A stretch of 57,877 bases of DNA from an uncultured Gammaproteobacteria bacterium (GTDB taxonomy: Bacteria > Patescibacteriota > Microgenomatia > UBA12405), in the NCBI GenBank assembly GCA_964442385.1, contig CAYTYZ010000006.1, positions 1 to 57,877 of the forward strand. Direction: 5' to 3'. The notes below the pieces were generated by a model. That model saw only the letters and a program-made list of their open reading frames with translations. It had not been told where the DNA came from and made no database searches. Position numbers and translations under genes: made by a program. How positions within the stretch are numbered: the stretch's first letter is position 1; the number at the start of each line of letters is the position of its first letter. Below, piece by piece: positions 12,864 to 44,839 of this stretch.

Positions 12864-13374
12864 CTCCCAAGCCATATAGTAAACTCATGGCACCAGGAAG
12901 TGAGAATTTGGCCCCCTTAATAGTAGCTGACCTAACATCAATAAAATAATTTTTTGCACCAAGCAGATTTGCTTTGGTTAAATTAGTCTTGGCAAACACA
13001 GTTTTTTCAAAATCACTATTCTGCAGTTGTGATTCGCTTAAATTGGCCTCCGTAAAATCACATTCTTTTGCCATACATTCCCTAATCACAATTTTAGGTA
13101 GCGACAATAGTCTAAAATTTGAATAACTAAGTTCGCAATTTTTAAAAACCAAGTTTTCTACTTTAGCTGCCCTAGTCCAATCCATTCCCATTATATTGCA
13201 GTCAATAAACTCCACATCCACAAACTGGCTATCACTAATATCCACTGCACTTAAAATACACCCTTTAAATTGACAGTTCACAAACCTACACTTAATAAAC
13301 TTGCACTGACTATATTTACAATCCAAAAACCTTTCTTCCTCAAACTCCTTTTTTGAAAATATTTTTCCCACCAT
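12850..13374 (-). CDS. Pentapeptide-repeat protein
   Basis: Continuous A(D/N)LxX-type repeats (CKFIKCRFVNCQFKGCILSAVDISDSQFVDVEF..ANLSESQLQNSDFEKTVFAKTNLTKANL). Confidence 0.8.
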   Translation of the reverse strand: MVGKIFSKKEFEEERFLDCKYSQCKFIKCRFVNCQFKGCILSAVDISDSQFVDVEFIDCNIMGMDWTRAAKVENLVFKNCELSYSNFRLLSLPKIVIRECMAKECDFTEANLSESQLQNSDFEKTVFAKTNLTKANLLGAKNYFIDVRSATIKGAKFSLPGAMSLLYGLGVILE

Positions 13375-13541
13375 ACTACTATTTTACTCTGCTAAACTAA
13401 CCAATAATCACCATAACCAAACCTATCACCATAGACCTCGTCCATATTAAACAAATTCTTAGTCAGTGGACAGAGCCCATTGAAGTTGATAAGTATATTT
13501 CAAGAATAGAAAACGAGATTCATGGACATACTGAATTTAAT

Positions 13542-13886
13542 ATGCATTTTTGGGTAGCCAAACAAGATGACACTGTTATTGGCATAGTTGGTCTATCCAA
13601 TCCATTGCCCAAAGTACTTTCTTTTACCAAAACCTTTCTTCCAGGGGAACTAAAAATTCTTTATGTTGATACTAGTCATCAGGGCAGGGGAGTAGGCGGA
13701 CTATTGGTAAATTTTATTGAACAAGAGGCTATGTACCATGGCTATACCGAGTTATTGGTTCGAAGTGCCCAAAGATACCAAGATACGGCTTTTGGTTTTT
13801 ACAAGAAAAAAAACTACACCGATTTGGGTACAATCGATGGCGATGATAATAAAAAGTCCATGCAAGTTTTTCAAAAAATCCTCTAA
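13542..13886 (+). CDS. GNAT N-acetyltransferase with an unresolved N-terminus
   Basis: HQGRGVGGLLVNFIEQEA is the acetyl-CoA loop. The frame is open back to 13401 and encodes a plausible GNAT N-terminus (ITIDLVHIKQILSQW..), but no ATG, GTG or TTG occurs there. Confidence 0.65.
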   Translation: MHFWVAKQDDTVIGIVGLSNPLPKVLSFTKTFLPGELKILYVDTSHQGRGVGGLLVNFIEQEAMYHGYTELLVRSAQRYQDTAFGFYKKKNYTDLGTIDGDDNKKSMQVFQKIL

Positions 13887-13906
13887 AAATATGCTAAAGT
13901 ATTTTT

Positions 13907-14374
13907 ATGGATAAAATAAAAAAAACCAGCCCAACCCCAGCTAAGTCTAACAATTTTGCAAGAAATTTTCTGATTGGTTTATTAGGTGTTGCCGCCTATT
14001 TTGCCATCCAATATTTTTTCACTAACCAGTCCAACCAAGCCAAATTTAACCAAACCAGTACCAAGTTTGACCAGCTCTCAGAATCAATTTCTCAAAAAAA
14101 CGAACAGCTTTTTAATCTAAAAAACAAAGATGCCAAAACACTTTTGCCAGCGGTACAAAGCCTTCAGTCTGATTACGTGCAAATGCAAACCCTTCTGGGT
14201 GGTCTTAATAAAACACCTGAAACTAGTGCTGATTTTGCTATGACCGGCAAGGCCATTGAAGCCCTAAAAGCTATCGAAAAAGGTATTTTGGACAACAACA
14301 AAACTCTAAAAGACAAAGGCTTTTTGCTTCTTGATAGCCTACTTGCACCTGTAACTCCATCTCCAAAAAACTAA
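13907..14374 (+). CDS. Membrane-anchored hypothetical protein
   Basis: 155-aa ORF with one TM (FLIGLLGVAAYFAIQYFF) and a helical Gln-rich ectodomain. Confidence 0.5.
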   Translation: MDKIKKTSPTPAKSNNFARNFLIGLLGVAAYFAIQYFFTNQSNQAKFNQTSTKFDQLSESISQKNEQLFNLKNKDAKTLLPAVQSLQSDYVQMQTLLGGLNKTPETSADFAMTGKAIEALKAIEKGILDNNKTLKDKGFLLLDSLLAPVTPSPKN

Positions 14375-14381
14375 CAATAAA

Positions 14382-14885
14382 ATGGTAAAACCATTCCCAC
14401 CCATGGCTATATTTAAACCAGGGGTGTTATCTGTGACAGTTTTTAGTGAAATTAATTATTTTCTAATTGTTATCTATTCGGCAATCTTAATTAACATCCA
14501 AGATATATCAAAAATTAATATAAATTCATTTTACTTACTATTTATTTTATTAATTGTTTTGTCACTTGTGTCCGCGTTTATATCAACGAAAATAGTAATA
14601 ACTGGACCAAAACTAACATCCTTCAGCCCAATTAGCTCCGGTCACGAATTTAATATTAATCAACCTTTTGAGGTTGAAGCTCGTAGAAGGAGATGGAACA
14701 CAGAAGGGAACATCACTATTTTCCCCACTTACTCATATATTGATTTTTACTTGTCTTCAGATATCGCCCATAGGTCGAACCAGCATATCTCTCTTGGGTT
14801 AGGGTGGAGTAAAAATGATGTTATCAAATTATTTACATATCTTCAGAATAATTATCCAAATATTAAGCAACTATACTTTCCATAA
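14382..14885 (+). CDS. Hypothetical membrane protein
   Basis: 167-aa ORF with two or three N-terminal TM segments. Its stop overlaps the next gene's start (TAATG). Confidence 0.45.
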   Translation: MVKPFPPMAIFKPGVLSVTVFSEINYFLIVIYSAILINIQDISKININSFYLLFILLIVLSLVSAFISTKIVITGPKLTSFSPISSGHEFNINQPFEVEARRRRWNTEGNITIFPTYSYIDFYLSSDIAHRSNQHISLGLGWSKNDVIKLFTYLQNNYPNIKQLYFP

Positions 14886-15418
14886 TGAAAACTACAAGCC
14901 CCTTTAAAACCACCTGGGTGACTTCGGACAAAGTTAATCCTAGTGAGCAACATGTTCCTGTCACGCAAGTTTATTGTTGGATTATTTCAAAGGATGGACA
15001 AGTATGCATAGTTTCCAAAGACAATCAGTCCTGGCAACTGCCTGGAGGTCACCCTTTGCCAGGTGAAAATATAAGCCAAACAGTAGTACGTGAAGTGGCA
15101 GAAGAAGCAGGACTAGATTTATCCCACAGTCAGAACGATATTCAGCTCTTTGGCTATAATAATGTCAAAAAACTATCAGACACTGGAACAGTTATCGACC
15201 ATTTTTTACAGCTTAGAACGTATTGTTTTATTGACAAATTGGCCAAGGATTACATACTCTTACCCCAAGAAAAACCAACCGAAAAAATTGAATATAGAAT
15301 CATTTCTGCTAAATTTGTCACGATGGAAAAATTGCTTGAACTAATACCATGGCTATCTACCAGTCCAGAGTATAACGCCATAAAAAAAGCCCCTATCGGT
15401 GATTTTCATCACCTCTAG
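14885..15418 (+). CDS. Nudix hydrolase
   Basis: Nudix box GGHPLPGENISQTVVREVAEEAGL. Confidence 0.8.
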   Translation: MKTTSPFKTTWVTSDKVNPSEQHVPVTQVYCWIISKDGQVCIVSKDNQSWQLPGGHPLPGENISQTVVREVAEEAGLDLSHSQNDIQLFGYNNVKKLSDTGTVIDHFLQLRTYCFIDKLAKDYILLPQEKPTEKIEYRIISAKFVTMEKLLELIPWLSTSPEYNAIKKAPIGDFHHL

Positions 15419-15453
15419 GGGCCTGCGTTGCGGAAAGAACTTTCAGAAAAAGT

Positions 15454-16062
15454 CTAGTTTGGTAAACTGACAGCAGCAGCCACCCTATCTAGGGTGATGA
15501 CTCCATCGTTACAAAGTTTGTCAAGCAATTGAAGGTTTGGCAAATGCGCGTCACATGCGCCGATTTTTACCTGAATTCGGTCGGGCTCATGTACACGATA
15601 ATCAAGTAGCGCACCATTTGCAACTTTATCGAACATTTGGATAATTCTTTGACCCGAAGCCTTGCATTGCACGAAAGCGGCAATGTTATTAAGATATATA
15701 TGCCCCATCCTATCACGATCACGGGTTCCACAGACAAAGCAAGTACAAGAATCCAAACCTATGCCTCGGGACCAAAAGAATTCGCCACCCCCTTCGGGTT
15801 GTTTATCTGGTTTACCATGAGAATCAATTCCCTCGCGAGGGTGTTTTTGAAGTTCAGGATAAAAGCTGCCAAATCCGATGGCTGACTTCTTAACGTCATC
15901 AGCCAGAACAGCAAAGCTAACTTCGCATTCACCACAGGATACTATTGCTGTACCTCCCCCTGATATTGGCGAGTAGCCAGATCGATAGCCACAATTGGGG
16001 CATCCCCACTTTTGGTACTCATTCGCTGCGACAGCAATTGGTTGTTTGATGCCATCAGTCAT
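15454..16062 (-). CDS. Cys-rich zinc-ribbon protein of unknown function
   Basis: Start refined to MTDGIKQP, with AAGGAAG 6 nt upstream. It contains CPNC-x20-CGEC, then CTCFVC, plus further Cys and His (QCK, GACDAH, LCND). It overlaps the upstream paralog by 8 nt, so they form an operon. Confidence 0.6.
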   Translation of the reverse strand: MTDGIKQPIAVAANEYQKWGCPNCGYRSGYSPISGGGTAIVSCGECEVSFAVLADDVKKSAIGFGSFYPELQKHPREGIDSHGKPDKQPEGGGEFFWSRGIGLDSCTCFVCGTRDRDRMGHIYLNNIAAFVQCKASGQRIIQMFDKVANGALLDYRVHEPDRIQVKIGACDAHLPNLQLLDKLCNDGVITLDRVAAAVSLPN

Positions 16063-16417
16063 TTTGTTCTTCCTTCTTTGGTTTGTCACCAAACTTCATT
16101 TGCTCGTCGTTTACCTCTTTAAGAAAGAGGTGAGCTTCGCTGGCAATATCCTTGTCGTCGACCAGGGCATCAACGATCTGTGGAATACACAAATATAGAA
16201 CTGAAAAGGTATCCAGGCCATAGTCAGTCGTGTTTGAAAATTCGTTGATTATGACAATCAATTGCCTGACTAGGCTATACGCACTCATTTTCTGACCTGC
16301 CAATTTGACAAGAGCCTGATTAAAAGGCCCTGCCACTCTCTCATCCAAACCTAACTGCGCCGTTTCCATTCGTGCAACAATCTCTTTCGCACTCGGAAGT
16401 TTGACGGTCTTATCCAT
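16055..16417 (-). CDS. Small helical protein, paralog 1 of 3
   Basis: 120 aa with an AAGGAG RBS. It shares GLDE(R/Q)V..FNQ.L..LA.Q and LCIPQI(V/I)DALVDDK with the next gene. Confidence 0.65.
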   Translation of the reverse strand: MDKTVKLPSAKEIVARMETAQLGLDERVAGPFNQALVKLAGQKMSAYSLVRQLIVIINEFSNTTDYGLDTFSVLYLCIPQIVDALVDDKDIASEAHLFLKEVNDEQMKFGDKPKKEEQND

Positions 16418-16434
16418 GTCTTTCTCCTTCTTGG

Positions 16435-16779
16435 TTAGTTTTTGGTTTTTGACATTGAAGCAAGTACTTCTTCGTAATAGCGCTTGGCTTCCTCGACAAC
16501 ACCTTTGTCGTCGACCAAAGCGTCAATAATCTGTGGAATGCAGAGCAATAGGACTTCATAGAAGTTAGGGCCATAATCACCTGTTTTTGTAAATCTGTAG
16601 ATCACCACACCCAGTAGTATGACCAAGCTCTGCCCACTGACTGCCTGGTCAGCCAATCCGATAAGACACTGATTAAAGAGCCGTCCCACTTGCTCATCCA
16701 ACCCAATCTGCATTTTCTCCAGCCGGGTTTGAAACTTTTCCCCGGCAGGAAGTCTGGTATAAAACCTTGGGTTACTCAT
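16435..16779 (-). CDS. Small helical protein, paralog 2 of 3
   Basis: 114 aa with an AGGAG RBS; colinear with 16055..16417. Confidence 0.65.
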   Translation of the reverse strand: MSNPRFYTRLPAGEKFQTRLEKMQIGLDEQVGRLFNQCLIGLADQAVSGQSLVILLGVVIYRFTKTGDYGPNFYEVLLLCIPQIIDALVDDKGVVEEAKRYYEEVLASMSKTKN

Positions 16780-16816
16780 ATTTTTGCTCCTTTTTTTGGT
16801 TTACGCCGTTTTTTTT

Positions 16817-17158
16817 CTACGAATAAACTGCTTGTGTGCGAATCATCTTTCCATAAAATTCCTTGGCTTCTGTGGCAATATCTTCGTTTTCCACCAGAAT
16901 ACCGATAATAAAGGTAACTTTTGTACTCAAGAATGCATCCATATCACGTGGATATCCACCACTTTTCACAAATTTGGAAATTGCATCAAGAATCACCCCA
17001 ACCATATGCTTCCGATAAATCGAACCCCGGGTAACTTTGTAAATAAACCCAAAGAGGTCTTCGTTCGAGAACCGCTCGGACAGAGGTGGGGTATTTGCAA
17101 CTAGACGCATTGCCTCGTCTATATTCCGAAGCACCACAAACTCAACTTGCTTGCTCAC
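16817..17158 (-). CDS. Small helical protein, divergent paralog 3 of 3
   Basis: Start refined to GTG 17158..17156, with AAGGAG 6 nt upstream. The C-terminal IIGILVENEDIATEAKEFY aligns with DALVDDKDIASEAHLFL and DALVDDKGVVEEAKRYY in the other two. Confidence 0.55.
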   Translation of the reverse strand: MSKQVEFVVLRNIDEAMRLVANTPPLSERFSNEDLFGFIYKVTRGSIYRKHMVGVILDAISKFVKSGGYPRDMDAFLSTKVTFIIGILVENEDIATEAKEFYGKMIRTQAVYS

Positions 17159-17349
17159 GTTGTTCTCCTTCTTACTTTTTTTCTTGTTTTCTAACCGAAT
17201 GGTTAGCACACTAAGCAAAAAAATTTGCCCAGAATGCTAACCATTGATTTTATAAGAAGATATGTTTTCCGCAACTTTTTAAAGAGCACTATTTACAAGT
17301 TTTAAATTTACCCACAGCAATTGTGGATTATTTAATTCTTGAATACATA

Positions 17350-17384
17350 AGTATATCAAAAAACATATATTTTGCAATATTATA
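17350..17384 (-). promoter_or_regulatory. Promoter for the three-paralog / zinc-ribbon operon
   Basis: On the minus strand: TTGCAA (17377-17372), a 16-nt spacer, then TATACT (17355-17350). An alternative TATAAT lies at 17384-17379. Either way the leader is about 185 nt. Confidence 0.45.
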
Positions 17385-17416
17385 GGTAAAATGCAGTGGT
17401 GCACTTAGTTCTCTAT

Positions 17417-18682
17417 CTAATCTACTAGACAAATACCCAACTCTCGGTTGGTTTTCAGTATGTTTCGGTTGGTTTTATCTAGCTCCAGTTTCTTTCTCAA
17501 CCTTGATACAAACTTATCAAAAGCCCAGTCAGTAGGATATTCGTCTTTACCCCAAACATTCTCCATAATTTCTTCGCGACTAAAAACTTTATTTGGGCTA
17601 TCCGACATAAAAGTTAATAGTCGATACTCTCTCTTTGACAATAGATTGTTAATTAATTTACCTAAAAAGAACAGCTGTTCATTTTCCTTGTCATACACAA
17701 ATGGAGCAATACTTTGCTTGCCAGATTTTAAATAGGTGTCTAGAAGTGGTGAAAAAACTTTGATTTTGTTATCGATCACAGATTGAAAACCTAATTTAAT
17801 TAATAGCTCATCTTTTTGGTTTGTTTTTAGTTTGGCTATTTGCAAGTCAGTCAAGCTACTTAATATTCTTTGACATTGAAACATTATCTCCTCCTCGTTA
17901 CATAGATTTGTTATTTTTTTTGCATAATTTGTCTGTGACACTTTTGATAATGTTTGAACACAAAATTTAATCAATCCTGCATGTCCTCCACAAAGTTCAA
18001 TAATCTTATTCTTTTCTTTATCTGTCAAGTTAACCTGATATCTGTGGCAATTTCTTTGCAGTACCCACCCGGCCTGGTCTTCAGAAAATGGCGTCATAAA
18101 AACCATTTTCTGAAAGAAAAAAGTCACCGGCTCAAAAGGCCTAACTCCTCCAAAAATAAATACCAAAGAAAATCTGGCCGCGTTTCTTAGAGCTATTAAT
18201 TGGTGGTAAACCAGATCCAAATCCATTTTTCTAGCTTGGTCAAAATTATTAAAAAGAAACACAATTATTTTTCCGGTCTTGTTTGCCACATTGGCCAGAT
18301 CTTCTTTTAGAGATTTTAAAAGAATATTAGGCTGGTCTATAAATATTTGGTTTAAATAAGTACTCTCCAATCCTAGTTTTGTAGCTTCTTCCATCAAGCT
18401 AGCACTTATTAAGTGGTACAAGCTAGGCAGGGTAAACGATCCCAGTTCATTTAAATCTACTAATACAAACATATATTTATCCGCCTCAGCCCCTAAATAT
18501 TTTGTTTGCACATCTGCACGTCTTGAAATATATCTCATTACGTTTATCTTGCAGTTATCCTTCATGCCGATAAACGAAAAAGATTCGCTTCTTTTTAATA
18601 AGTCAAAAATATCTCCAACCACATCTTGCCGGTAATCTAGGGGAAAATTATCCTCCAGCACCAGGTGTTTATCCAGTTCCAT
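17417..18682 (-). CDS. Transcriptional regulator with an N-terminal STAND/AAA-like NTPase fold (degenerate Walker A) and a C-terminal OmpR/PhoB-type winged helix
   Basis: The C-terminus LSKREYRLLTFMSDSPNKVFSREEIMENVWGKDEYPTDWAFDKFVSRLRKKL matches trans_reg_C. In the N-terminal part, FSFIGMKDNCKINV sits where GxxGxGKT is expected, IIVFLFNNFDQA is Walker-B-like, and LCGGHAGLIKF is STAND-like. Confidence 0.65.
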   Translation of the reverse strand: MELDKHLVLEDNFPLDYRQDVVGDIFDLLKRSESFSFIGMKDNCKINVMRYISRRADVQTKYLGAEADKYMFVLVDLNELGSFTLPSLYHLISASLMEEATKLGLESTYLNQIFIDQPNILLKSLKEDLANVANKTGKIIVFLFNNFDQARKMDLDLVYHQLIALRNAARFSLVFIFGGVRPFEPVTFFFQKMVFMTPFSEDQAGWVLQRNCHRYQVNLTDKEKNKIIELCGGHAGLIKFCVQTLSKVSQTNYAKKITNLCNEEEIMFQCQRILSSLTDLQIAKLKTNQKDELLIKLGFQSVIDNKIKVFSPLLDTYLKSGKQSIAPFVYDKENEQLFFLGKLINNLLSKREYRLLTFMSDSPNKVFSREEIMENVWGKDEYPTDWAFDKFVSRLRKKLELDKTNRNILKTNRELGICLVD

Positions 18683-18690
18683 ACTATCAA

Positions 18691-18727
18691 ATTATATCAT
18701 TTGTCAGCCTGTGTCAGCTTGGTGACA
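18691..18727. promoter_or_regulatory. Divergent control region with phased direct repeats TGTCAGC and the regulator's own -10 box
   Basis: TGTCAGC occurs at 18702-18708 and 18712-18718, exactly 10 bp apart. GTCA-gcttgg-TGAC follows as an inverted repeat. On the minus strand TATAAT (18696-18691) lies 8 nt before ATG 18682, so the mRNA is near-leaderless, and the repeats overlap the -35 region. Confidence 0.45.
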
Positions 18728-18782
18728 AGCACAACCACTTTTTTAGACGTATTCTCAGCTGGTTAGTCATTATTTTCTTTAT

Positions 18783-19958
18783 ATGTACGAAAAAATTGAT
18801 ACCCTGCCTGTTACAAAGGAATACTATGGTGATACTAGGGCCGAAGATTCCTGGGTTGATCCAGTTCGTAATCAAACCGTTAGTACGATGAGCGAAGAAT
18901 TTTCTCGGAGGTCGTTGGAGATAATTCAAGAACTTTGTAGACGAAAAGGTGTGACAAATCCCCAGGGATTCATTTTAAATACTTCCCACCAAAGTGCACC
19001 ATATTCATATAGCAGAGCCTCCTTTCAGCTGGAATGCCAGGATGAAGGCAAAGAGAAGCCTATTCTGATAATCAGAAAATCAAGAGATAATCGCAAGCCA
19101 CAGTATGACCCCCAAGAGTCAAAGTGGGTAAACGAAAATGATCTTCTGCCTAGAAGCGAAGTTATTGTCAGAAAATTAGGTTATTGGAACGAAGACAAAG
19201 CTAAAAAAGGAGATTTGTATGATACATCTCTTTTAGTTTCCACTGTTAAAAGTCTCGACGCGCTCAAACCTGTTGATAAAAGAAAACTGATTCGTGGAAT
19301 TGAAAAAACCCAATTTCTTTGGCTAGAGAAAGAAATTTCAAGCGAAGAAAAATGGCAATCCTATTATCAAAATGCCTCGCATAGAAAAGATGTTGACCAG
19401 TGCAGACTTTTGGTAATTTTGTTAAATGCAAAAACATACCAGAAACACGGACGTTGGCAAGGGCATGACGATGCACTTGCAAGACAAGGCACCTGGGATA
19501 TACCGGCCCAACCTGCTCTTGAAATAAAAACTGAAGAATATCTACTTGGGGCAATAAATGAGTTATTACTACAGGGCCACAAGCAGTGGGATGAAGTCGC
19601 TTGGTTTGCAGTTCAAACCCTTGGTAACACAGGAGGGGCAAGGGCTTTACCTGCTATGTTTGACTACTTAAAAACCATTACTGAACCTGATGATCAAGTC
19701 ACGATTCTAAAAGCGCTAGCCAAAATTGGCTCGCCAAGAGTTGGAAAATACCTTATTGCCAATCTAAAAGGTGACAAAAGTTTTGTCAATTTTTGGCAAA
19801 AATCTAGAATAGTTACCGACTTGATAAAAGCCTCACCCCATCAAGAAGGAGCCAAAAAAGCCTACAAGAATCTTCTTGCATTCGTCGATCAGCTAAAAGG
19901 AGATAGCAAGTCCTCAAATGCTATGTTCTTAGCCGATAGTTTAAAAAATATTTATTAA
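18783..19958 (+). CDS. Family-A protein, copy 1: unknown N-terminal domain plus C-terminal HEAT/PBS-lyase-like repeats
   Basis: 391 aa. The C-terminus AVQTLGNTGGARALPAMFDYLKT..ILKALAKIGSPRVGKYLI is HEAT-like. It is colinear with the next gene. Confidence 0.6.
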   Translation: MYEKIDTLPVTKEYYGDTRAEDSWVDPVRNQTVSTMSEEFSRRSLEIIQELCRRKGVTNPQGFILNTSHQSAPYSYSRASFQLECQDEGKEKPILIIRKSRDNRKPQYDPQESKWVNENDLLPRSEVIVRKLGYWNEDKAKKGDLYDTSLLVSTVKSLDALKPVDKRKLIRGIEKTQFLWLEKEISSEEKWQSYYQNASHRKDVDQCRLLVILLNAKTYQKHGRWQGHDDALARQGTWDIPAQPALEIKTEEYLLGAINELLLQGHKQWDEVAWFAVQTLGNTGGARALPAMFDYLKTITEPDDQVTILKALAKIGSPRVGKYLIANLKGDKSFVNFWQKSRIVTDLIKASPHQEGAKKAYKNLLAFVDQLKGDSKSSNAMFLADSLKNIY

Positions 19959-19959
19959 T

Positions 19960-21123
19960 ATGACCAATTACAAAGAATTTCCAACTCTAAAAGTTACCAG
20001 TTCTAGCTATCAGGATTCTAGGGCAGAGGATTCCTGGATAGATCCGAATCGCAATGAAAAAGTAACTACTATTAGCGACCTGTTTGAACCCAGAGCTATA
20101 GAAATAATCAAAGAACTATGCATACGTAAAGGTGTTGTTAACCCACAGGAATTTACACTACACACCTCTAGTCGCTCTGCGCCATATTCCTTCAGCAGAT
20201 CAACCTTTTTATTAAAATGTATCGACGAAAATATTCCTTCTCCCATAGTAATTGTAAAAAAAGAAACCGACAATCGATATCCTGACCCCGACCCCAGAGA
20301 GGAGTATTGGGTCAATGAAAATGATTTACTGCCCAGAAGTGAGCTTAAAGTTCGAAAACTTGGTTTTTTTAATGAAATCAAAGCTCAAAAGGAAGCCGGA
20401 GAGCTACTACGAGCCTCAAAACTAATCAAAACTATAAATGAGCGACCGGGGCTTAGCAAAGATGAAAAACAATTTATCGTTGAGGAAGTAGAACACTGGC
20501 AAGGGACATGGCTGGTGGATGGAGTAAAAAGTGAAAGTCATTGGCAGTGGTGTTATCAAAATGCTTTGTACAGAAAAGACTACCACCAGTGCGGCTTGTT
20601 AATAAAAGTGCTAATACACAACAAAATCAACCATGGGTCAGACAAAAAAAGTGCCTGGGCAAGTCCCAATATTTCCAGAAAAGGGACTTGTGACATTCCT
20701 GCCCAGGCGATAATTGCTGATAAAACCCAAGCATGGCTACAGGAGGCTGTTAAAAAGAGTTTATCTGGGCTTTCAGAATGGAAGGATCTGTCGTATCAAG
20801 CTATCCAAGCCCTGGGTCATCTTGGCAACGCTAGTGCCTTGCCTGTTATTTTTGATTATCTAAAAACAGCGCCCATGGGGTCTCGCGAACAAGATAAGGC
20901 CCATCGAGCTTTAGCCAGAATAGGATCACCCAGGGTATATAGATATTTTATCAACTATTTTCAATCTGAAGATAAAGCTAAGACAGAGCACTCTAAGTTC
21001 ATAGTTAGAGAGTTACTAGACGATATGATCGAAAATGATCCAAAGCAACCCGGTGCTAAAAAAGCAATACTTGAATTCAAAAAATATGCCAAAAAGCACA
21101 ATTTAAGATATTTAGGGAAATGA
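19960..21123 (+). CDS. Family-A protein, copy 2 (tandem paralog)
   Basis: 387 aa. Shared with copy 1: Y.D.RAEDSW(V/I)DP.RN, II.ELC.RKGV.NPQ.F, SAPYS(Y/F)SR, WVNENDLLPRSE, DIPAQ, ALP..FDYLKT and IGSPRV. Confidence 0.6.
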   Translation: MTNYKEFPTLKVTSSSYQDSRAEDSWIDPNRNEKVTTISDLFEPRAIEIIKELCIRKGVVNPQEFTLHTSSRSAPYSFSRSTFLLKCIDENIPSPIVIVKKETDNRYPDPDPREEYWVNENDLLPRSELKVRKLGFFNEIKAQKEAGELLRASKLIKTINERPGLSKDEKQFIVEEVEHWQGTWLVDGVKSESHWQWCYQNALYRKDYHQCGLLIKVLIHNKINHGSDKKSAWASPNISRKGTCDIPAQAIIADKTQAWLQEAVKKSLSGLSEWKDLSYQAIQALGHLGNASALPVIFDYLKTAPMGSREQDKAHRALARIGSPRVYRYFINYFQSEDKAKTEHSKFIVRELLDDMIENDPKQPGAKKAILEFKKYAKKHNLRYLGK

Positions 21124-21153
21124 CCAATCTGTTATCTATTTATTTCTTTTGCT

Positions 21154-22065
21154 ATGTCCAAAGAACAATTAAAACCAACCCAAGAACAGCCTGAAGTTAT
21201 CCAAGTTAGATCTGAAAAAAAGAGGGGTATTCACTACCCCACCAAAGCCGAAATTTCTGCTGGTTTTCAGTCCATTTGCGATCAGTATGGCCTAAAGCCT
21301 GATGACTATTTACCAGAAATTGCAAAAATTACCCAGAGAAGATTGGAAATCAGAGAAAAGGAAAGTCCCAAAGATAAAACCATGAATAGTTACATAAAAG
21401 CCAGCATAAAGCCGTTTGAACATTATTGGACAAGTATTTGTTTTGAAGCGAAATTAGATCCTAAGTATCCTGCTTGGCTAGCCAGAGCTGTCACGGGATA
21501 TCCCGTCCATAGGCTAAAGCTAGACCTTGGAATGCATTTTAATAACCAATTTTCAAAGACTCAAAGATACCTTTGGTTTATAAATAATGCTGCTTGGTGG
21601 CTAACTGCAGGTGACATCCCAGCAAGTATTGCCTTGGAAGAATGCGATTTTAGAGCAATACAACGCGGCCAACCACCTCTTTATGAAAACTGGATAAGAA
21701 CTACCATTCCATTAGTTCATGATAAGGATTTACCACCAGAGGTAGGAGCTCTCACAGCCAAATTCGTTCAGAACGAAGTTGTTAGCACCATAAGGAATAT
21801 TCATTATCACTGGGGATTTGCTTTGGGCATGATCCCAGATCTTGAGCAAAGATATCCACGAACTAGCCGAAACAAGGGACCTACTAGTTTTCTTGGATAT
21901 AAAGAACCAGGTGCCCTTCCTGGCTCTACATTTTTTGAAAGCATTAGCTTTCACAAAATTGCTCTTAGGGTTACAGTAAATCAAGTTCCTGCCACCAAAT
22001 ACGAAGAGTCCGATAGCGCCAATTTCGCTAGATTGGCCAATATTAGTTATGGCGAAGACTTTTAA
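21154..22065 (+). CDS. Family-B protein, copy 1 (unknown function)
   Basis: 303 aa. Shares IHYPTKAEISAGFQ..CDQYG, NAAWWLT.GD, PLYENWI, NKGPTSF and VPATK with the next gene. Confidence 0.6.
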   Translation: MSKEQLKPTQEQPEVIQVRSEKKRGIHYPTKAEISAGFQSICDQYGLKPDDYLPEIAKITQRRLEIREKESPKDKTMNSYIKASIKPFEHYWTSICFEAKLDPKYPAWLARAVTGYPVHRLKLDLGMHFNNQFSKTQRYLWFINNAAWWLTAGDIPASIALEECDFRAIQRGQPPLYENWIRTTIPLVHDKDLPPEVGALTAKFVQNEVVSTIRNIHYHWGFALGMIPDLEQRYPRTSRNKGPTSFLGYKEPGALPGSTFFESISFHKIALRVTVNQVPATKYEESDSANFARLANISYGEDF

Positions 22066-22076
22066 TCTATTCAATT

Positions 22077-23006
22077 ATGACCAAAGAACAACTAAATCCA
22101 TTATCAGAAAAACCAGCCGATATACAATCCAGAGCTGAAAAAAAGCCTGTTATACACTATCCCACCAAGGCTGAAATTTCTGCTGGTTTTCAAACTGTTT
22201 GCGATCAATACGGACCTTGGTTGGACGAGTTAAAAAAGAGCTTGTCTGCACGTATTTTAAAACAGTCAGACAAACTTAGTAAAAAAGTACCCGAAGGTGA
22301 ATTACCAGAGAAAGATAAAAATTATTATATTGAAAGCAAGATTAGCCGGTATGCAAAGACTTGGAAAGAAATGGATTTCGATAAAGATCTTGACCCAGGG
22401 TTTCCTACTTATCTAGCCAGGGCCACCACAGGGTTTTACCTTGAGGTATTACGACATGATCTACGCGGGGGAGACTTTTTTGAGGGAGCATTTGATCAAA
22501 CTCAAAAATATGTCTGTTATTTGCACAATGCTGCTTGGTGGCTAACTAATGGAGATCTGGAAACCAGCTATGCCTTGGTTAACTGCGACGCTCACGCTAG
22601 AAAAACTGGCCACCAGCCATTATATGAAAATTGGATAAAAACAATTACTCCCATACCTCTTGTAGACAAATTACATCCTGACGTTGTATCTATTACCAAG
22701 CGGTTTATTCAAAACGAAATTTATCGAAGAATCTGGAAAATCCAATTATACTGGGAAGAAGCCTGGGGTATCATACCTCTACTAGAATCTACACTAAAAA
22801 GACCACCTGGTATCAACAAGGGGCCCACTAGCTTTGCCACTTATGCCACCCCTAGTGGCTATTATAATCTTAGTTTCTACGACGAAATAAATTTTGCCAA
22901 ATTTGCTCTCAGAATTATGTCAAATAATGTCCCAGCGACCAAACTCCAGGAGCTAGAAAACCGTGAGTCATCCAGACTAGGAAATTATAGTGATATATAT
23001 GGATGA
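22077..23006 (+). CDS. Family-B protein, copy 2 (tandem paralog)
   Basis: 309 aa. Two DNA runs are identical to copy 1: a 20-mer gaaatttctgctggttttca (21250-21269 and 22173-22192) and a 21-mer aatgctgcttggtggctaact (21586-21606 and 22527-22547). Confidence 0.6.
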   Translation: MTKEQLNPLSEKPADIQSRAEKKPVIHYPTKAEISAGFQTVCDQYGPWLDELKKSLSARILKQSDKLSKKVPEGELPEKDKNYYIESKISRYAKTWKEMDFDKDLDPGFPTYLARATTGFYLEVLRHDLRGGDFFEGAFDQTQKYVCYLHNAAWWLTNGDLETSYALVNCDAHARKTGHQPLYENWIKTITPIPLVDKLHPDVVSITKRFIQNEIYRRIWKIQLYWEEAWGIIPLLESTLKRPPGINKGPTSFATYATPSGYYNLSFYDEINFAKFALRIMSNNVPATKLQELENRESSRLGNYSDIYG

Positions 23007-23041
23007 CTTTTAAATCCCCAAATTAATCGCTATTATAATTA

Positions 23042-23989
23042 ATGCACGAACGAATTATTTTCCTGGCTTTGTCAGTTTTTCTACTCTCTGCCCAGGGGGT
23101 CCAGGCTACCACTCTAATTAGACAAAATGGCACTGTTACTTCAGTTGCCGGAGTAGTTTTAGGTGATGAAGTCACTCCCACTCCAGAAGTTGATGAATAT
23201 TGGAAGCGACCTTCACCCGTAGTCGACGATCATTGGAATCGTCCTTCACCAGCCGTTGATGACTATAAGAATAGACCTACCTGGTATCCCGGAGCCACCA
23301 GGCCTCCAACCTGGACACCTATTTCTCGTCCGCCAACTTGGTCACCAGAGCACGAGCCTAGCCGTTATCCTACCAGATCCCCAGAACCAAGCAGAAAGCC
23401 AGAGCTTCACATTACCCCTTGGCTAACCAGGCCACCTACCCCCACCAAAAGCCTTACCCCAAAGCCCACCAGAACTATAGATGAATACCGTGAATTATAT
23501 TTAAAAATTCGTGATAGTAAAGGCAAGGAAACGATCGTCGATAAAAAAGACGATGTAGTAGTCGAAACCAAGAAAGATAATTTTCGTCTTAAAGAAAATA
23601 TTGAAAGCCAAACTATAGAAATGACCAAAGGTGAGGATAAGCTTGATATTACTCTTCCCGTTATAATCAATTCTGACACCAAGCAAGTATCTGTTGGCAC
23701 CAGTTCTGGCAAGGAAGTAGAAATTAAAGCAGAGCTTCGCGATGCAATTGAAAAAACCTTAGAGCACCTTGATCTTCAAGACACAATTCCACCCCAAGAA
23801 GTTGGCACTTCCATTGTAGAGGATGACGGTAAGGTGGTTTACAAACTTGAAACCCAAAAACGCCAAAAACTCTTTGGATTTTTACCAGTAAAAGTTGAAG
23901 AAACTACTACTCTTGATGCTGAAAGTGGCGAGTTAGTTAAAACAGAAAAAAGTTTTGCCAATAGAATTCTTGATTTCTTTTCTTTCTAG
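23042..23989 (+). CDS. Secreted Pro/Trp-rich repeat protein
   Basis: Signal peptide MHERIIFLALSVFLLSAQGVQA. Three tandem 11-aa repeats (VDEYWKRPSPV / VDDHWNRPSPA / VDDYKNRPTW) are followed by RPPTW(T/S)P repeats and a charged C-terminal domain. Confidence 0.6.
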   Translation: MHERIIFLALSVFLLSAQGVQATTLIRQNGTVTSVAGVVLGDEVTPTPEVDEYWKRPSPVVDDHWNRPSPAVDDYKNRPTWYPGATRPPTWTPISRPPTWSPEHEPSRYPTRSPEPSRKPELHITPWLTRPPTPTKSLTPKPTRTIDEYRELYLKIRDSKGKETIVDKKDDVVVETKKDNFRLKENIESQTIEMTKGEDKLDITLPVIINSDTKQVSVGTSSGKEVEIKAELRDAIEKTLEHLDLQDTIPPQEVGTSIVEDDGKVVYKLETQKRQKLFGFLPVKVEETTTLDAESGELVKTEKSFANRILDFFSF

Positions 23990-23992
23990 ATC

Positions 23993-26056
23993 ATGACCAC
24001 CTCCCTGCACCAACTTTTTAATCCATCATCCATTGCAGTTTTAGGAGCATCTAGAGAATCCACCAAAGTTGGCAATATCGTCGTGTCAAATTTACAAAAG
24101 TCTGGGTTCAGGGGAACTATTTATCCTATCAACCAAAATAGTACGGAAATAAATAATTTACCCGCTTATCCTGATTTGCAATCGCTACCCCAAAAAGTCG
24201 ATCTGGTAGTGGTTTCTATACCCTCACAATATGTACTCGAAAATATTATTAAGGCCAATGAATTAGGCTATAAAAATTTTGTAGTCTTTAGTGCTGGCTT
24301 TAAAGAAATAGGGCAGGAGGGTCGCCTACTTGAAGATAACCTAATCAAATATGCCAAGGACAACAATCTAAATATTCTGGGTCCAAATTGTCTTGGGTTT
24401 TACAACCTGGATTGTAGTGCCAATATTACTTTTGGTACAACCGCCGGGCTTCCAGGAAACCTCAGGTTTGTTTCCCAATCTGGTGCTATAGTTACTGCTC
24501 TCTTTGATTATGCCACTCATCATAATCTGGGTTTTCGCGATTGTCTAACTCTGGGCAACAAAGCCGTCCTAAACGAGAATGATATCTTAAATTATTATTT
24601 GGAAACCAGCCGGCAAGGAGATGTTGTTGGTTTATATCTAGAATCAATAACAGATGGCCGAATTTTCTTAGATTTATGCCAACAACTAACCGAAAAAAAA
24701 ATTCCTGTTTTCATCCTCAAACCTGGTAGACACTCTAGCTCTCAAAAGGCTATGCTTTCTCATACAGGTTCGATGGCCGGAGAGGATTCCATTCTGGATG
24801 TAGCCCTCTCTGAAGCGGGAGTGCTCAGAATAAATGGCTTTGAAGAACTCTTTGACCTTTCGCGCGCTTTTTCCTGGCTAGGTAAACCTTCAAGCAATAC
24901 TGTTGCAATAGTTTCTAACGCTGGTGGACCAGCCGTAGTTAGTTCTGATATGGTAGTAGATTACGGACTGGAGTTGGCGCAGTTATCACCACAAACCGAG
25001 CAAGTCTTATCCCAGTCTCTACCACGTTTTGCCGGAATCCATAATCCAGTGGATGTCCTGGGTGATGCCCAGTCAGACCGGTACCGCCTAGCACTTGATG
25101 CCGTTTTAAATGAACCCAACGTATCTTCAGTTCTAGTTCTTCTAACTCCTCAAACCATGACTGACATAGAAAATATTGCCAATGTAATTTCAGACATGTC
25201 TATAAAATACACCAAGCCAATTGTGGCCAGTTTTATTGGCGGCGATGTAACCCAACAAGGTGCCAAGATTTTAGATCAAAAACATATTCCGTGTTATAAC
25301 TATCCAGAAAGAGCTATCCGCGCCCTGTCTAGAGTATATTTCCAGACACAAAACCAACCGATCCCCTTGTCCGAATTAACCAACACTCACCAGAAGTTAG
25401 AAACTACCGAAGTTGGTCTTTTGGGATTTTCACAAGCCCAGGCACTTTTGTCAAAGCATGGCATCACACCTCCAGCTTTTAAAATAATTTCCTCCGTTCC
25501 TGATTTAGAAAATTATATACAAGAACACGGCTACCCATTAGTACTTAAAGCTACTGGCCCCTCTTTAGTTCATAAAACTGAACACAAAGCAGTCTATATC
25601 AACCTAATTACATTTTCTCAAGTTACAGAAGCCTACGAAAAGCTAAAAACCCTTCAAGGGCAATATGAAAATACCCAAATCATAGCCCAATCTCAAGTTA
25701 AAACCGGACTAGAACTTATTTTTGGCATAAAACGTGACCCAACTTTTGGGCCTGTTGCTATGTTTGGAGCCGGTGGTAAATGGGTCGAACTTTTGCACGA
25801 TCGCAATTTGGCCTTACTGCCGTTAAATCTACAAAAGGCGACCAGTTTAATTTCCACCTCTAAACTTAATAAGATTTTTTCTGGATATAGGGGAGAAGAG
25901 GGGTACCCAGTAGACAAGTTAGCCCAAGTTCTAGTTAGTCTAAGTGACATATTTCTATCATTTAGTAATATCTCCGAACTAGAAATTAACCCAATTATCC
26001 TTACTCACAATGATGCTTGGTGTGTAGACTTTCGGCTGATAATTTCCCAGATTTAA
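23993..26056 (+). CDS. ADP-forming acetyl-CoA synthetase (acetate--CoA ligase family, fused alpha/beta)
   Basis: PSSIAVLGASRESTKVGNIV is the CoA-binding region. ILGPNCLGF, SQSGA and MLSHTGSMAG (phospho-His loop) follow, with a C-terminal ATP-grasp; 687 aa. Confidence 0.85.
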   Translation: MTTSLHQLFNPSSIAVLGASRESTKVGNIVVSNLQKSGFRGTIYPINQNSTEINNLPAYPDLQSLPQKVDLVVVSIPSQYVLENIIKANELGYKNFVVFSAGFKEIGQEGRLLEDNLIKYAKDNNLNILGPNCLGFYNLDCSANITFGTTAGLPGNLRFVSQSGAIVTALFDYATHHNLGFRDCLTLGNKAVLNENDILNYYLETSRQGDVVGLYLESITDGRIFLDLCQQLTEKKIPVFILKPGRHSSSQKAMLSHTGSMAGEDSILDVALSEAGVLRINGFEELFDLSRAFSWLGKPSSNTVAIVSNAGGPAVVSSDMVVDYGLELAQLSPQTEQVLSQSLPRFAGIHNPVDVLGDAQSDRYRLALDAVLNEPNVSSVLVLLTPQTMTDIENIANVISDMSIKYTKPIVASFIGGDVTQQGAKILDQKHIPCYNYPERAIRALSRVYFQTQNQPIPLSELTNTHQKLETTEVGLLGFSQAQALLSKHGITPPAFKIISSVPDLENYIQEHGYPLVLKATGPSLVHKTEHKAVYINLITFSQVTEAYEKLKTLQGQYENTQIIAQSQVKTGLELIFGIKRDPTFGPVAMFGAGGKWVELLHDRNLALLPLNLQKATSLISTSKLNKIFSGYRGEEGYPVDKLAQVLVSLSDIFLSFSNISELEINPIILTHNDAWCVDFRLIISQI

Positions 26057-44772: not shown

Positions 44773-44790
44773 GGAGTAACGCCTGATTGG

Positions 44791-44839
44791 TGTCTGTGGC
44801 GTATGCGCAAGCATATGCCACAGACATCTTTCTTTTTCT
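44791..44839 (+). terminator. Strong rho-independent terminator
   Basis: A 16-bp stem TGTCTGTGGCGTATGC / GCATATGCCACAGACA (one G-U) with a GCAA tetraloop, then TCTTTCTTTTTCT. Confidence 0.85.

What the first reader, a model, noticed from the sequence alone, without database searches (positions are those of the whole stretch)
15454..23989. Regulator-centred 8.5-kb locus built entirely of lineage-specific paralog families
Every gene in this block is either of unknown function or a regulator. On the left arm (minus strand) the order is STAND-like/winged-helix regulator, then three tandem small helical paralogs, then a Cys-rich zinc-ribbon protein. On the right arm (plus strand, divergent from the regulator) the order is A, A', B, B', then a secreted Pro/Trp-rich repeat protein. 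Genes are tightly packed with gaps of 1-35 nt. Each arm appears to have its own promoter in a shared or adjacent control region. Housekeeping genes flank the block: a Nudix hydrolase on the left and the acetyl-CoA synthetase on the right. The combination of serial duplication, a dedicated sensor-type regulator and an exported product is what I would expect of an accessory host- or environment-interaction or conflict module. I could not match any family to a described system.
Basis: partly seen in the sequence, partly recalled or inferred. Interest (0 to 1): 0.72.

Follow-up and report, generated by a model that had tools for sequence, protein, structure and literature searches.

The report
Variable island with STAND-type regulator module
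The ten genes are real, but they are not one system: the conserved core is a new ATPase-fold/OmpR-type regulator with its own binding site and fast-changing partner genes of unknown function, all inside a stretch that differs between related genomes.

Summary
The gene order and the tandem paralogy are confirmed (A1/A2 45%, B1/B2 44%, S2/S3 49% identity; S1 is divergent). The block is not one module.

- **Variable segment.** A related contig (L020) keeps GNAT and SEC–ACD but has a single unrelated gene where the window has 13891–23020. The block is therefore variable, and the secreted protein belongs to the backbone.
- **Conserved core.** REG models with high confidence as an AAA+/STAND-class NTPase (best match 2qen, then ORC/Cdc6 and CED-4). 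Its Walker motifs are degenerate and it carries a C-terminal OmpR-type winged helix.
- **Operator.** A direct-repeat element, CTTGxxx-N5-CTGACA-N4-CTGACA, lies upstream of REG in 8 of 10 distinct REG loci. In the window it ends 19 nt before REG's ATG.
- **Partner genes.** A divergent gene carrying the "A-N" N-terminal module is present in 6 of 10 loci. A1 and A2 add PBS-type HEAT repeats.
- **Orphans.** B is found only in this organism among 1.84 billion representatives. S had no global protein search.
- **Left arm.** S1–S3 and ZnR have no operator. All four have strong Shine-Dalgarno sites, and S1–S3 have raised GC3. ZnR occurs elsewhere without REG.

Function is unknown, and no defence, phage or plasmid match was found. 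This is a new variant of a known regulator kind, of moderate interest.

The parts
13891..23020 (.). Segment that differs from related contig L020. It holds two hypothetical genes, Nudix, ZnR, S3-S1, REG, A1, A2, B1 and B2.
   Evidence: L020 aligns to window 13169-13890 (80.8% nt) and 23021-25017 (75.2% nt), with only a 687-nt Exo_endo_phos gene in between. No boundary repeats of 9 nt or more were found.
15454..16062 (-). ZnR: a 202-aa Cys-rich protein with an N-terminal zinc ribbon. It is conserved elsewhere but not linked to REG.
   Evidence: The 202-aa gene call is confirmed. Homologues at 49-57% identity occur in L004 and L010-L013. In L010 it lies near infC and rplT with no REG. No Pfam or PDB match.
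16055..16417 (-). S3: a small helical orphan paralog (120 aa).
   Evidence: 49% identical to S2. AAGGAG Shine-Dalgarno site. GC3 0.47.
16435..16779 (-). S2: a small helical orphan paralog (114 aa).
   Evidence: No plasmid, phage or viral relatives.
16817..17158 (-). S1: a divergent third paralog. The likely start is the GTG at 17158 (113 aa); the ORF extends to the TTG at 17218.
   Evidence: jackhmmer links S1 to S2 and S3. A 35-nt start-region repeat with AAGGAG is shared with S3 (D2).
17198..17245 (.). Inverted repeat with 22-nt arms (82% complementary, 4-nt loop), 40 nt upstream of the S1 start. It could be an operator or a 5'-UTR hairpin for the left arm.
   Evidence: I1. Function not tested.
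17417..18682 (-). REG: a 421-aa regulator with an AAA+/STAND-class NTPase module, degenerate Walker motifs, a helical/winged-helix region and a C-terminal OmpR/PhoB winged helix.
   Evidence: Trans_reg_C at residues 348-418, E 3e-17. AF2 pLDDT 87, pTM 0.85. Foldseek: 2qen E 1.5e-9, then ORC/Cdc6, CED-4, NRC and Apaf-1. Motifs are shown in the alignment. Eleven homologues at 42-51% identity.
18691..18696 (-). TATAAT box 8 nt upstream of the REG ATG, implying a leaderless or near-leaderless REG mRNA.
   Evidence: Sequence. 25 of 67 window genes have such a box at -18..-4, against 3 in a control window.
18702..18729 (-). Putative REG operator: CTTGTCA-N5-CTGACA-N4-CTGACA, direct repeats with a 10-12 bp period.
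   Evidence: It is the only exact CTGACA-N4-CTGACA in the window. The same element lies upstream of REG in 8 of 10 distinct loci. It is the top hit in the window of a weight matrix built only from the other loci.
18783..19958 (+). A1: an N-terminal 'A-N' module plus an unknown middle region plus C-terminal PBS-type HEAT repeats (391 aa).
   Evidence: HEAT_2 E 2.7e-6. alphaRep profile hits, E 1.7e-16. A-N homology to REG-adjacent proteins in other loci.
19960..21123 (+). A2: tandem paralog of A1 (387 aa), starting 1 nt after the A1 stop.
   Evidence: 45% identity, E 2e-100. dN 0.53 with dS saturated.
21154..22065 (+). B1: a 303-aa orphan protein predicted to be all-helical.
   Evidence: A profile search of 1.84e9 representatives found only the window's own copies, two fragments matching them (one from a ~97%-identical strain), and one weak repetitive protein judged spurious. 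AF2 pLDDT 42.
22077..23006 (+). B2: tandem paralog of B1 (309 aa).
   Evidence: 44% identity. The duplicated DNA includes 18 nt upstream of the start (D1). dN/dS is about 0.34.
23042..23989 (+). SEC: a secreted Pro/Trp-rich protein. It is a backbone gene and not part of the variable block.
   Evidence: It has an 85%-identical orthologue in L020, directly followed by ACD and preceded by an unrelated gene. TATAAT lies 3 nt before the ATG in both.

Best explanation
The reported block is a patchwork lying inside a 9.1-kb segment (13891-23020) that varies between related genomes. Only one part of it is a coherent unit that recurs elsewhere: REG, its operator, and the divergent A1-A2-B1-B2 genes.

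**REG.** REG is a one-component regulator built from an AAA+/STAND-class NTPase module fused to a C-terminal OmpR/PhoB winged helix. The NTPase keeps the Walker A lysine but has lost the preceding glycine, the Ser/Thr and the Walker B aspartate.

**Proposed mechanism (inferred).** REG binds head-to-tail to the tandem direct repeats CTTGxxx-N5-CTGACA-N4-CTGACA. These repeats sit where the -35 region of REG's own leaderless promoter would be, and 53 nt upstream of A1. From there REG would regulate itself and the divergent operon.

**The cargo.** A1, A2, B1 and B2 are cytoplasmic helical or repeat proteins. A combines the A-N module with HEAT repeats; B is an orphan family. They are fast-evolving and expendable, and their biochemical role is unknown.

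**The other genes.** S1-S3-ZnR is a separate operon translated from Shine-Dalgarno sites; S1-S3 also have higher GC3, which suggests a different origin. SEC belongs to the conserved backbone together with the acetyl-CoA synthetase gene.

**Shown:** gene structure, paralogy, the REG fold, conservation of the operator, the recurring REG/A-N pairing, and variability of the segment.
**Inferred:** that REG binds the operator, that A1-B2 form one operon under its control, and everything about function.
For: - **REG fold.** AF2 pLDDT 87, pTM 0.85. Foldseek finds 2qen at E 1.5e-9, followed by ORC/Cdc6, CED-4, NRC and Apaf-1.
- **DNA-binding domain.** Trans_reg_C, E 3e-17. PDB PhoB, E 1e-11.
- **Operator.** The exact 12-base pattern occurs once in the 57.9-kb window, in the REG-A1 spacer. 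It occurs upstream of REG in L005-L009, L014-L016 and L019, and with one mismatch in L002.
- **Operator copies at neighbouring genes.** Further copies lie 40-114 nt upstream of neighbouring unknown genes, in the same relative orientation: L002 at 7872 and 9150, L004 at 11297, L009 at 5709.
- **Independent scan.** A weight matrix built without the window ranks 18698-18729 first in the window.
- **A-N pairing.** hhalign gives 80% probability, E 1e-5. phmmer of the L019 122-aa protein hits only A2 (1e-4) and A1 (1.6e-3). jackhmmer joins the REG-adjacent proteins of L002, L014-L016 and L019.
- **Variability.** L020 synteny. The L014/L015 indel.
- **Composition.** REG, A and B have native codon usage. 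S1-S3 have raised GC3, and all four left-arm genes have Shine-Dalgarno sites.
Against: - There is no experimental or expression data.
- The assignment of the operator to REG rests on co-location and on the known preference of OmpR-family proteins for direct repeats. Another factor could bind it, for example the small HTH protein present in L002, L014 and L016.
- The matrix score of the window site (17.7 bits) is within the range of shuffled-sequence maxima (mean 13.4, maximum 19.9). Its significance comes from its position and its recurrence.
- A-N homology is remote, limited to about 70-100 residues, and rests on few sequences.
- Only one comparator contig (3.4 kb) defines the variable segment. 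Insertion in the window and deletion in L020 cannot be told apart.
- A2, B1 and B2 have neither a Shine-Dalgarno site nor a -10 box, so the operon call is based on spacing alone.
- Two of ten REG loci lack the operator upstream of REG (L004, L017). Four of ten lack a detectable A-N neighbour, and some of those contigs are truncated.
Confidence: 0.55

Rival explanations
1. One reading: all ten genes form one integrated accessory module for conflict or host interaction. A sensor-type regulator would control two divergent arms and an exported effector.
For: - The genes are tightly packed and of unknown function.
- The families are serially duplicated.
- REG is STAND-like.
- The segment is variable.
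- A ZnR homologue lies 9 kb from a REG homologue in L004.
Against: - SEC is retained next to ACD in L020 without the block, and has its own conserved promoter box.
- No operator lies upstream of S1.
- The left arm differs: all four genes have Shine-Dalgarno sites, and S1-S3 have raised GC3.
- ZnR occurs without REG in L010 and L011.
- B was found in no other organism, and S was not found in any locus or collection searched.
- PADLOC gave no system hit.
Confidence: 0.08
2. REG and the A, B and S genes are unrelated neighbours in a hotspot for orphan genes. REG would regulate only itself or distant targets, and its adjacency to A would be incidental.
For: - The neighbourhoods of REG homologues are very diverse.
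- In L017 REG sits between rpsI and recA with no cargo.
- B and S are orphans.
Against: - A-N family genes are the divergent neighbour in 6 of 10 distinct REG loci.
- The A-N family was found nowhere else in a search of 5.8 billion proteins.
- Extra operator copies precede the A-N genes in L002.
Confidence: 0.2
3. Split-STAND model. REG lacks the repeat sensor arm typical of STAND proteins. The A proteins (A-N module plus HEAT repeats) would supply that arm in trans: A-N docks on REG, the HEAT repeats sense a ligand or partner, and together they switch REG oligomerisation on the tandem repeats.
For: - REG ends at the winged helix with no TPR, WD40 or LRR region.
- A carries PBS-type HEAT repeats, a typical sensor scaffold.
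- The A-N module is the only recurring partner of REG.
Against: - There is no direct evidence of an interaction.
- Most A-N homologues elsewhere (122-218 aa) have no HEAT repeats.
- The L015 strain lost the 218-aa A-N gene while its REG stayed identical, although a 138-aa A-N-like gene remains.
Confidence: 0.1
4. The block is the remnant of a mobile element or prophage.
For: - The segment is variable between relatives.
- The S genes and some other Shine-Dalgarno-bearing genes have atypical GC3.
Against: - There is no integrase, tRNA or boundary repeat.
- No significant PHROG hit (best E 0.03) apart from the REG winged helix.
- No relatives in viral contigs, phage records or plasmids for the families tested.
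- REG, A and B have native codon usage.
Confidence: 0.05

Closest known systems
ATPase_2 ('archaeal ATPase', PF01637) proteins with a C-terminal winged helix, e.g. Pyrococcus abyssi PABY2304 (PDB 2qen)
   Same: This is the best structural match to REG over about 366 alignment columns (E 1.5e-9, TM 0.48/0.56). Both have an AAA+/STAND-class NTPase followed by a helical and a winged-helix region.
   Different: - No Pfam ATPase_2 hit was found at the sequence level.
- Walker A and B are degenerate in the whole REG family.
- REG adds an OmpR/PhoB-type DNA-binding domain.
MalT / LAL regulators (STAND NTPase plus a C-terminal LuxR-type HTH)
   Same: The logic is the same: an N-terminal STAND-class NTPase controls a C-terminal DNA-binding domain, and the regulator lies next to its target genes.
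   Different: - REG is 421 aa and has no sensor super-helical domain.
- Its DNA-binding domain is of the OmpR type, not the LuxR type.
- Its P-loop is non-canonical.
SARP / AfsR-type regulators (OmpR-type winged helix plus BTAD, with or without NB-ARC and TPR)
   Same: They combine an OmpR-family winged helix with a STAND NTPase. They bind direct repeats that overlap the -35 region (established knowledge of the family).
   Different: - The domain order is reversed: the winged helix is C-terminal here.
- There is no BTAD or TPR.
PhoB/OmpR response regulators and the pho box
   Same: REG has a Trans_reg_C domain (E 3e-17). Its putative operator is made of direct repeats with a period of about 10-11 bp that replace the -35 element just upstream of a -10 box.
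   Different: There is no receiver domain and no phospho-acceptor. The N-terminal part has an NTPase fold instead.
PBS-lyase-type HEAT repeat proteins (the natural basis of alphaRep scaffolds)
   Same: Residues of about 265-355 in A1 and A2 match HEAT_2/HEAT_PBS and alphaRep sequences.
   Different: There are only about 2-3 repeats. The N-terminal 260 residues have no known relatives beyond the REG-linked A-N module.

Membership tests
STAND / AAA+ NTPases | P-loop NTPase core fold of the AAA+/STAND class, followed by a helical and a winged-helix domain | tested here: met
   AF2 pLDDT 87. Foldseek hits to 2qen, ORC/Cdc6, CED-4, NRC4 and Apaf-1, all at probability 1.00. A conserved GGHAG/GGHPG motif sits in the helical domain.
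STAND / AAA+ NTPases | Canonical Walker A, GxxxxGK[ST] | tested here: not met
   The family consensus is G-[MVIT]-[KE]-D-[NV]-[CA]-[KR]-[ISV], located between strand 35-39 and helix 45-54.
STAND / AAA+ NTPases | Canonical Walker B, hhhhD[DE] | tested here: not met
   The family has hhhhF-N-[NED]-F-D. The Asp position is a nearly invariant Asn (N145).
STAND / AAA+ NTPases | C-terminal repeat sensor domain (TPR, WD40, LRR or HEAT) | tested here: not met
   The protein ends with the OmpR winged helix. No repeat domain appears in Pfam or in the model.
OmpR/PhoB response regulators | C-terminal Trans_reg_C winged helix | tested here: met
   PF00486, E 3.2e-17, 62.8 bits against a cut-off of 26.2. 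All 12 family members match.
OmpR/PhoB response regulators | N-terminal receiver domain with a phospho-acceptor Asp | tested here: not met
   No Response_reg hit. The N-terminal 320 residues fold as an NTPase.
OmpR/PhoB response regulators | Binding to tandem direct repeats | not testable with these tools
   A conserved direct-repeat element lies next to REG in 8 of 10 loci. Binding itself was not shown.
SARP regulators | N-terminal winged helix followed by a BTAD domain | tested here: not met
   The winged helix is at residues 348-418. No BTAD hit.
Known anti-phage defence systems (PADLOC-DB 2.0) | Any component matching a defence-system model | tested here: not met
   The only hit is a generic HEAT-ARM match for A2 (E 2.5e-5). 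The other nine proteins have none.
HEAT / PBS-lyase repeat proteins (A1, A2 C-termini) | HEAT_2 / HEAT_PBS repeat match | tested here: met
   A1 HEAT_2 scores 28.0 bits against a cut-off of 27.7. A2 scores 23.4 bits, below the cut-off. The profile of both paralogs against PDB alphaRep gives E 1.7e-16.
Mobile element / prophage | Integrase, attachment repeats, phage or plasmid homologues | tested here: not met

The most novel reading that the evidence does not exclude
REG plus the A-N proteins could be a previously undescribed two-part STAND-type switch in an uncultivated, poorly sampled lineage. REG would be a minimal NTPase-fold/OmpR regulator with a degenerate P-loop. Its exchangeable, rapidly duplicating partner proteins (A-N module, with or without HEAT repeats) would act as trans sensor arms or as diversifying cargo. 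The whole would be a self/non-self or partner-recognition module that no current defence or regulator catalogue lists.
Probability: 0.1. Interest if true: 0.75.

Novelty: new variant of a known kind. Interest (0 to 1): 0.4.

Why it matters
- **A testable regulator.** If REG binds the conserved repeats, this gives a defined regulator/operator pair with candidate target genes in a lineage known only from metagenomes, where transcription factors with known sites are scarce. The architecture (STAND-class fold with a degenerate P-loop and a C-terminal OmpR winged helix) matched no Pfam or NCBIfam model beyond the winged helix.
- **Fast gene turnover under a conserved regulator.** The target genes change quickly while the regulator stays the same. 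Examples are the tandem duplicates and a gene-sized indel between contigs that are 99.9% identical. This offers a small, tractable case of orphan-gene turnover.
- **A caution for genome scanning.** Tight packing of unknown genes around a regulator does not make a module. A single comparator contig was enough to take the "exported product" out of the block.

Tried and rejected
- **Family libraries.** Pfam, NCBIfam, PADLOC and PHROGs on all ten proteins gave only Trans_reg_C (REG) and HEAT (A).
- **PDB sequence and profile searches.** ZnR, B, S and SEC gave nothing significant.
- **B1 structure.** AF2 with the two-sequence alignment gave pLDDT 42, which is unusable, so no fold search was run on it.
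- **A1 word-index search.** It returned only A1 itself and A2.
- **B profile against 1.84e9 representatives.** It returned the window's own copies, two fragments matching those copies (one from a ~97%-identical strain), and one weak hit to a repetitive protein that I judged spurious.
- **Genome-contig scans.** The B scan used poor N-terminal patterns and found nothing. The ACD scan found only a Latescibacterota locus at 37% identity, useless for synteny or taxonomy.
- **Viral, plasmid and phage searches.** Viral-contig scans for S, A and ZnR, and plasmid and phage tblastn for S2 and B1 (B1 against phages only), found no relatives.
- **Operator upstream of the S1 operon or elsewhere in the window.** None was found. 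The two 2-mismatch hits are at chance level.
- **ZnR against a Cys-rich 93-aa REG neighbour in L016.** hhalign probability was 13%, so this was rejected.
- **Pfam on REG-adjacent proteins in other loci.** Nothing significant.
- **Literature searches.** Searches for the architecture and for the assembly accessions returned nothing relevant.
- **Taxonomic placement of the window.** Not achieved. That it belongs to the CPR/Patescibacteria is only an inference from the sources and gene content of related contigs.

Full report

The ten ORFs are present with the stated order and strands. Paralogy is clear. A1/A2 are 45% identical (E 2e-100), B1/B2 44% (E 8e-84) and S2/S3 49% (E 6e-31). S1 is a divergent third member: blastp against S2 gives E 1e-4, and jackhmmer joins it firmly. 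No further paralogs exist in the 57.9-kb window.

The duplicates are old and constrained. For B1/B2, dN is 0.51 and dS 1.51. For S2/S3, dN is 0.46 and dS 0.94. For A1/A2, dS is saturated.

Some starts need correcting. ZnR begins at the ATG at 16062 (202 aa; this gene call is confirmed) and overlaps the S3 stop. S1 most likely begins at the GTG at 17158, behind an AAGGAG that lies in a 35-nt repeat shared with the S3 start.

"Gaps of 1-35 nt" is true only for A1-A2-B1-B2-SEC. The S1-REG gap is 198-258 nt. SEC is only 3 nt from the acetyl-CoA synthetase gene. The Nudix and ADP-forming acetyl-CoA synthetase flanks are confirmed.

**2. What the proteins are**

*REG.* Pfam sees only Trans_reg_C, at residues 348-418 (E 3e-17). 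With an alignment of 12 family members, AlphaFold2 gives a confident model (pLDDT 87, pTM 0.85). Foldseek against the PDB returns the Pyrococcus Walker-type ATPase 2qen (E 1.5e-9), then ORC/Cdc6, CED-4, NRC resistosomes and Apaf-1. "STAND-like plus winged helix" is therefore correct at the fold level.

The nucleotide motifs are non-canonical across the whole family. Walker A reads G-x-[KE]-D-N-[CA]-[KR]-[ISV], and Walker B reads hhhhF-N-[NED]-F-D. A GGHAG/GGHPG motif is conserved. REG has no repeat sensor arm and no receiver domain.

*A1 and A2.* These carry PBS-type HEAT repeats at about residues 265-355 (HEAT_2; alphaRep profile hits at E 1.7e-16).

*B, S, ZnR and SEC.* None matches anything in Pfam, NCBIfam, PADLOC, PHROGs or PDB sequences. 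B1 modelled poorly (pLDDT 42). None of A, B, S or ZnR has a hydrophobic segment. SEC has an N-terminus that looks like a signal peptide.

**3. Distribution**

- **B.** A profile search of 1.84 billion representatives found only the window's own two proteins, two fragments matching those copies (one on a contig from a strain about 97% identical), and one weak hit to a repetitive protein that I judged spurious.
- **A1.** A word-index search found only A1 itself and A2.
- **REG.** It has 11 full-length homologues at 42-51% identity. I fetched their contigs, which gives 10 distinct loci including the window.
- **ZnR.** It has homologues at 49-57% identity. One lies 9 kb from a REG homologue (L004). 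Others lie near infC and rplT with no REG within the roughly 12 kb fetched.
- **S, B and SEC.** None has a relative in any fetched REG or ZnR locus.
- **Mobile-element collections.** Viral, plasmid and phage searches were negative.

**4. The conserved core**

Two features travel with REG.

*(a) A cis element.* The window spacer reads, on the minus strand, CTTGTCACCAAG-CTGACA-CAGG-CTGACA-AATGA-TATAAT-TTGATAGT-ATG(REG). The exact pattern CTGACA-N4-CTGACA occurs only once in the window. The same element, preceded by CTTGAT about 5 nt upstream, lies upstream of REG in 8 of 10 distinct loci.

Further copies lie 40-114 nt upstream of adjacent unknown genes, in the same relative orientation as the window element has to A1. 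These are L002 at 7872 and 9150, L004 at 11297 and L009 at 5709. A weight matrix built without the window ranks 18698-18729 first in the window. The score alone (17.7 bits) is within the range of shuffled maxima.

Direct repeats with a period of about 10-11 bp that replace the -35 element are how OmpR/PhoB and SARP proteins bind DNA (established knowledge). I therefore assign the element to REG, but this is an inference.

*(b) A partner family.* The first 70-100 residues of A1 and A2 are related to small proteins (122-218 aa) encoded divergently from REG in L002/L003 (two tandem copies), L005/L006, L014-L016 and L019. The evidence is as follows.
- hhalign gives 80% probability, E 1e-5.
- phmmer of the L019 protein hits only A2 (1e-4) and A1 (1.6e-3).
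- jackhmmer unites most of the set.
- A profile search of 5.8 billion proteins found this family only on REG contigs.

**5. The block is variable, and SEC is not part of it**

SEC has an 85%-identical orthologue on contig L020. L020 aligns with window 13169-13890 (pentapeptide and GNAT genes, 80.8% nt) and with 23021-25017 (SEC plus ACD, 75.2% nt). Between these two stretches L020 carries only one Exo_endo_phos gene. The 9.1 kb at 13891-23020 therefore differs between related genomes. It contains two hypothetical genes, Nudix, ZnR, S1-S3, REG, A1, A2, B1 and B2.

SEC keeps a TATAAT box 3 nt before its ATG in both genomes, so it has its own promoter. No boundary repeats, integrase or tRNA were found. 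Turnover of the cargo is also visible elsewhere. L014 and L015 are 99.9-100% identical except for a clean deletion of the 218-aa A-N gene between short repeated gene starts.

**6. The left arm is a different unit**

S1, S2, S3 and ZnR each have a strong AAGGAG/GAAGGA site. REG, A1, A2, B1, B2 and SEC have none. In the whole window only 10 of 67 genes have a Shine-Dalgarno site. By contrast, 25 of 67 have a -10-like box at -18..-4, which points to widespread leaderless mRNAs.

S1-S3 have GC3 of 0.42-0.50, against 0.34 for the window. REG, A and B are native in composition. No REG operator lies upstream of S1. Instead there is a promoter-like site at 17377-17350 and an inverted repeat with 22-nt arms at 17198-17245.

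**7. Mechanism and verdict**

The most likely reading (confidence about 0.55) is this. REG is an autoregulated one-component switch that binds the tandem repeats overlapping its own leaderless promoter, and it controls the divergent A1-A2-B1-B2 genes. Those genes are expendable, fast-evolving cytoplasmic helical or repeat proteins of unknown role.

"Accessory and regulator-linked" is supported for the REG-A-B part. A defence or host-interaction role can be neither shown nor excluded.

The architecture is a new variant of known regulator kinds (MalT/LAL, SARP, ATPase_2 with a winged helix). The most novel reading is a split-STAND system in which the A proteins act as trans sensor arms. It is possible but untested (probability about 0.1).

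**8. Limits**

- There is no expression or binding data.
- Only one comparator contig defines the variable segment.
- The A-N homology is remote.
- S, SEC and ZnR did not get a global protein search.
- The organism was not placed taxonomically.

Noticed in passing
whole window (e.g. 18691-18696, 23031-23038, 30535-30545, 38550-38560): Translation and transcription signals look unusual. 25 of 67 genes have a near-consensus TATAAT within -18..-4 of the start codon, against 3 in a control window. Only 10 of 67 have a Shine-Dalgarno site. This suggests that leaderless mRNAs dominate in this genome. The Shine-Dalgarno-bearing genes tend to have higher GC3 (10198-11076: 0.53; 39623-40768: 0.43; S1-S3).
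   Followed up: partly
window 43852-44814: There is a local GC spike (0.56 against about 0.39). It covers a 306-aa ORF with a strong AAGGAGG site, an N-terminal Gly/Asn-rich tract and an Ala/Pro/Glu-rich tail, and no Pfam hit. A long antisense ORF overlaps it. It may be a foreign gene.
   Followed up: no
window 32968-36720: Two adjacent large GH130 (mannooligosaccharide phosphorylase-like) paralogs of 608 and 641 aa. Each has a long N-terminal extension with no annotation.
   Followed up: no
L014 2749-3402 vs L015: Two contigs from different samples are 99.9-100% identical except for a clean deletion of about 654 bp. The deletion removes exactly the 218-aa A-N gene next to REG. Its borders lie at the repeated gene starts (ATGAAAGAAAG, i.e. 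'MKE...').
   Followed up: yes
L018 1-284 vs window 21050-21333: A JGI contig from a ~97%-identical strain matches the end of A2 and the start of B1, then switches abruptly into a type IV pilus operon. This is either a chimeric assembly or a rearrangement. Its B1 start carries B2-like residues (QTVCDQ), which hints at gene conversion between the paralogs.
   Followed up: partly
L002 7860-7887 and 9138-9165; L004 11297-11324; L009 5709-5736: Extra copies of the REG-associated CTTGAT-N5-CTGACA-N4-CTGACA element lie upstream of other unknown genes: a 96-aa HTH protein, a 210-aa A-N protein, a 197-aa protein and a 185-aa Cys-rich protein. Together they outline a small REG regulon in relatives.
   Followed up: partly
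L005 9126-9665, L016 4142-5514, L014 5076-5729: Downstream of REG, and convergent with it, several relatives carry a HEPN_RnaseLS-like gene (faint or weak hit) and/or an Rce1-like CPBP protease gene. Both types are often seen in toxin or immunity contexts.
   Followed up: no
window 23180-23290 vs L020 1580-1660: SEC and its 85%-identical orthologue differ by one copy of an 11-residue repeat of the 'VDD[HY]WNRPSP' type. The copy number of the repeat therefore varies between relatives.
   Followed up: partly
window 17198-17245: A near-perfect inverted repeat with 22-nt arms (AATGGTTAGCA...TGCTAACCATT) lies just upstream of the S1 start. It could be an operator or a 5'-UTR hairpin for the S1-S3-ZnR operon.
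   Followed up: no
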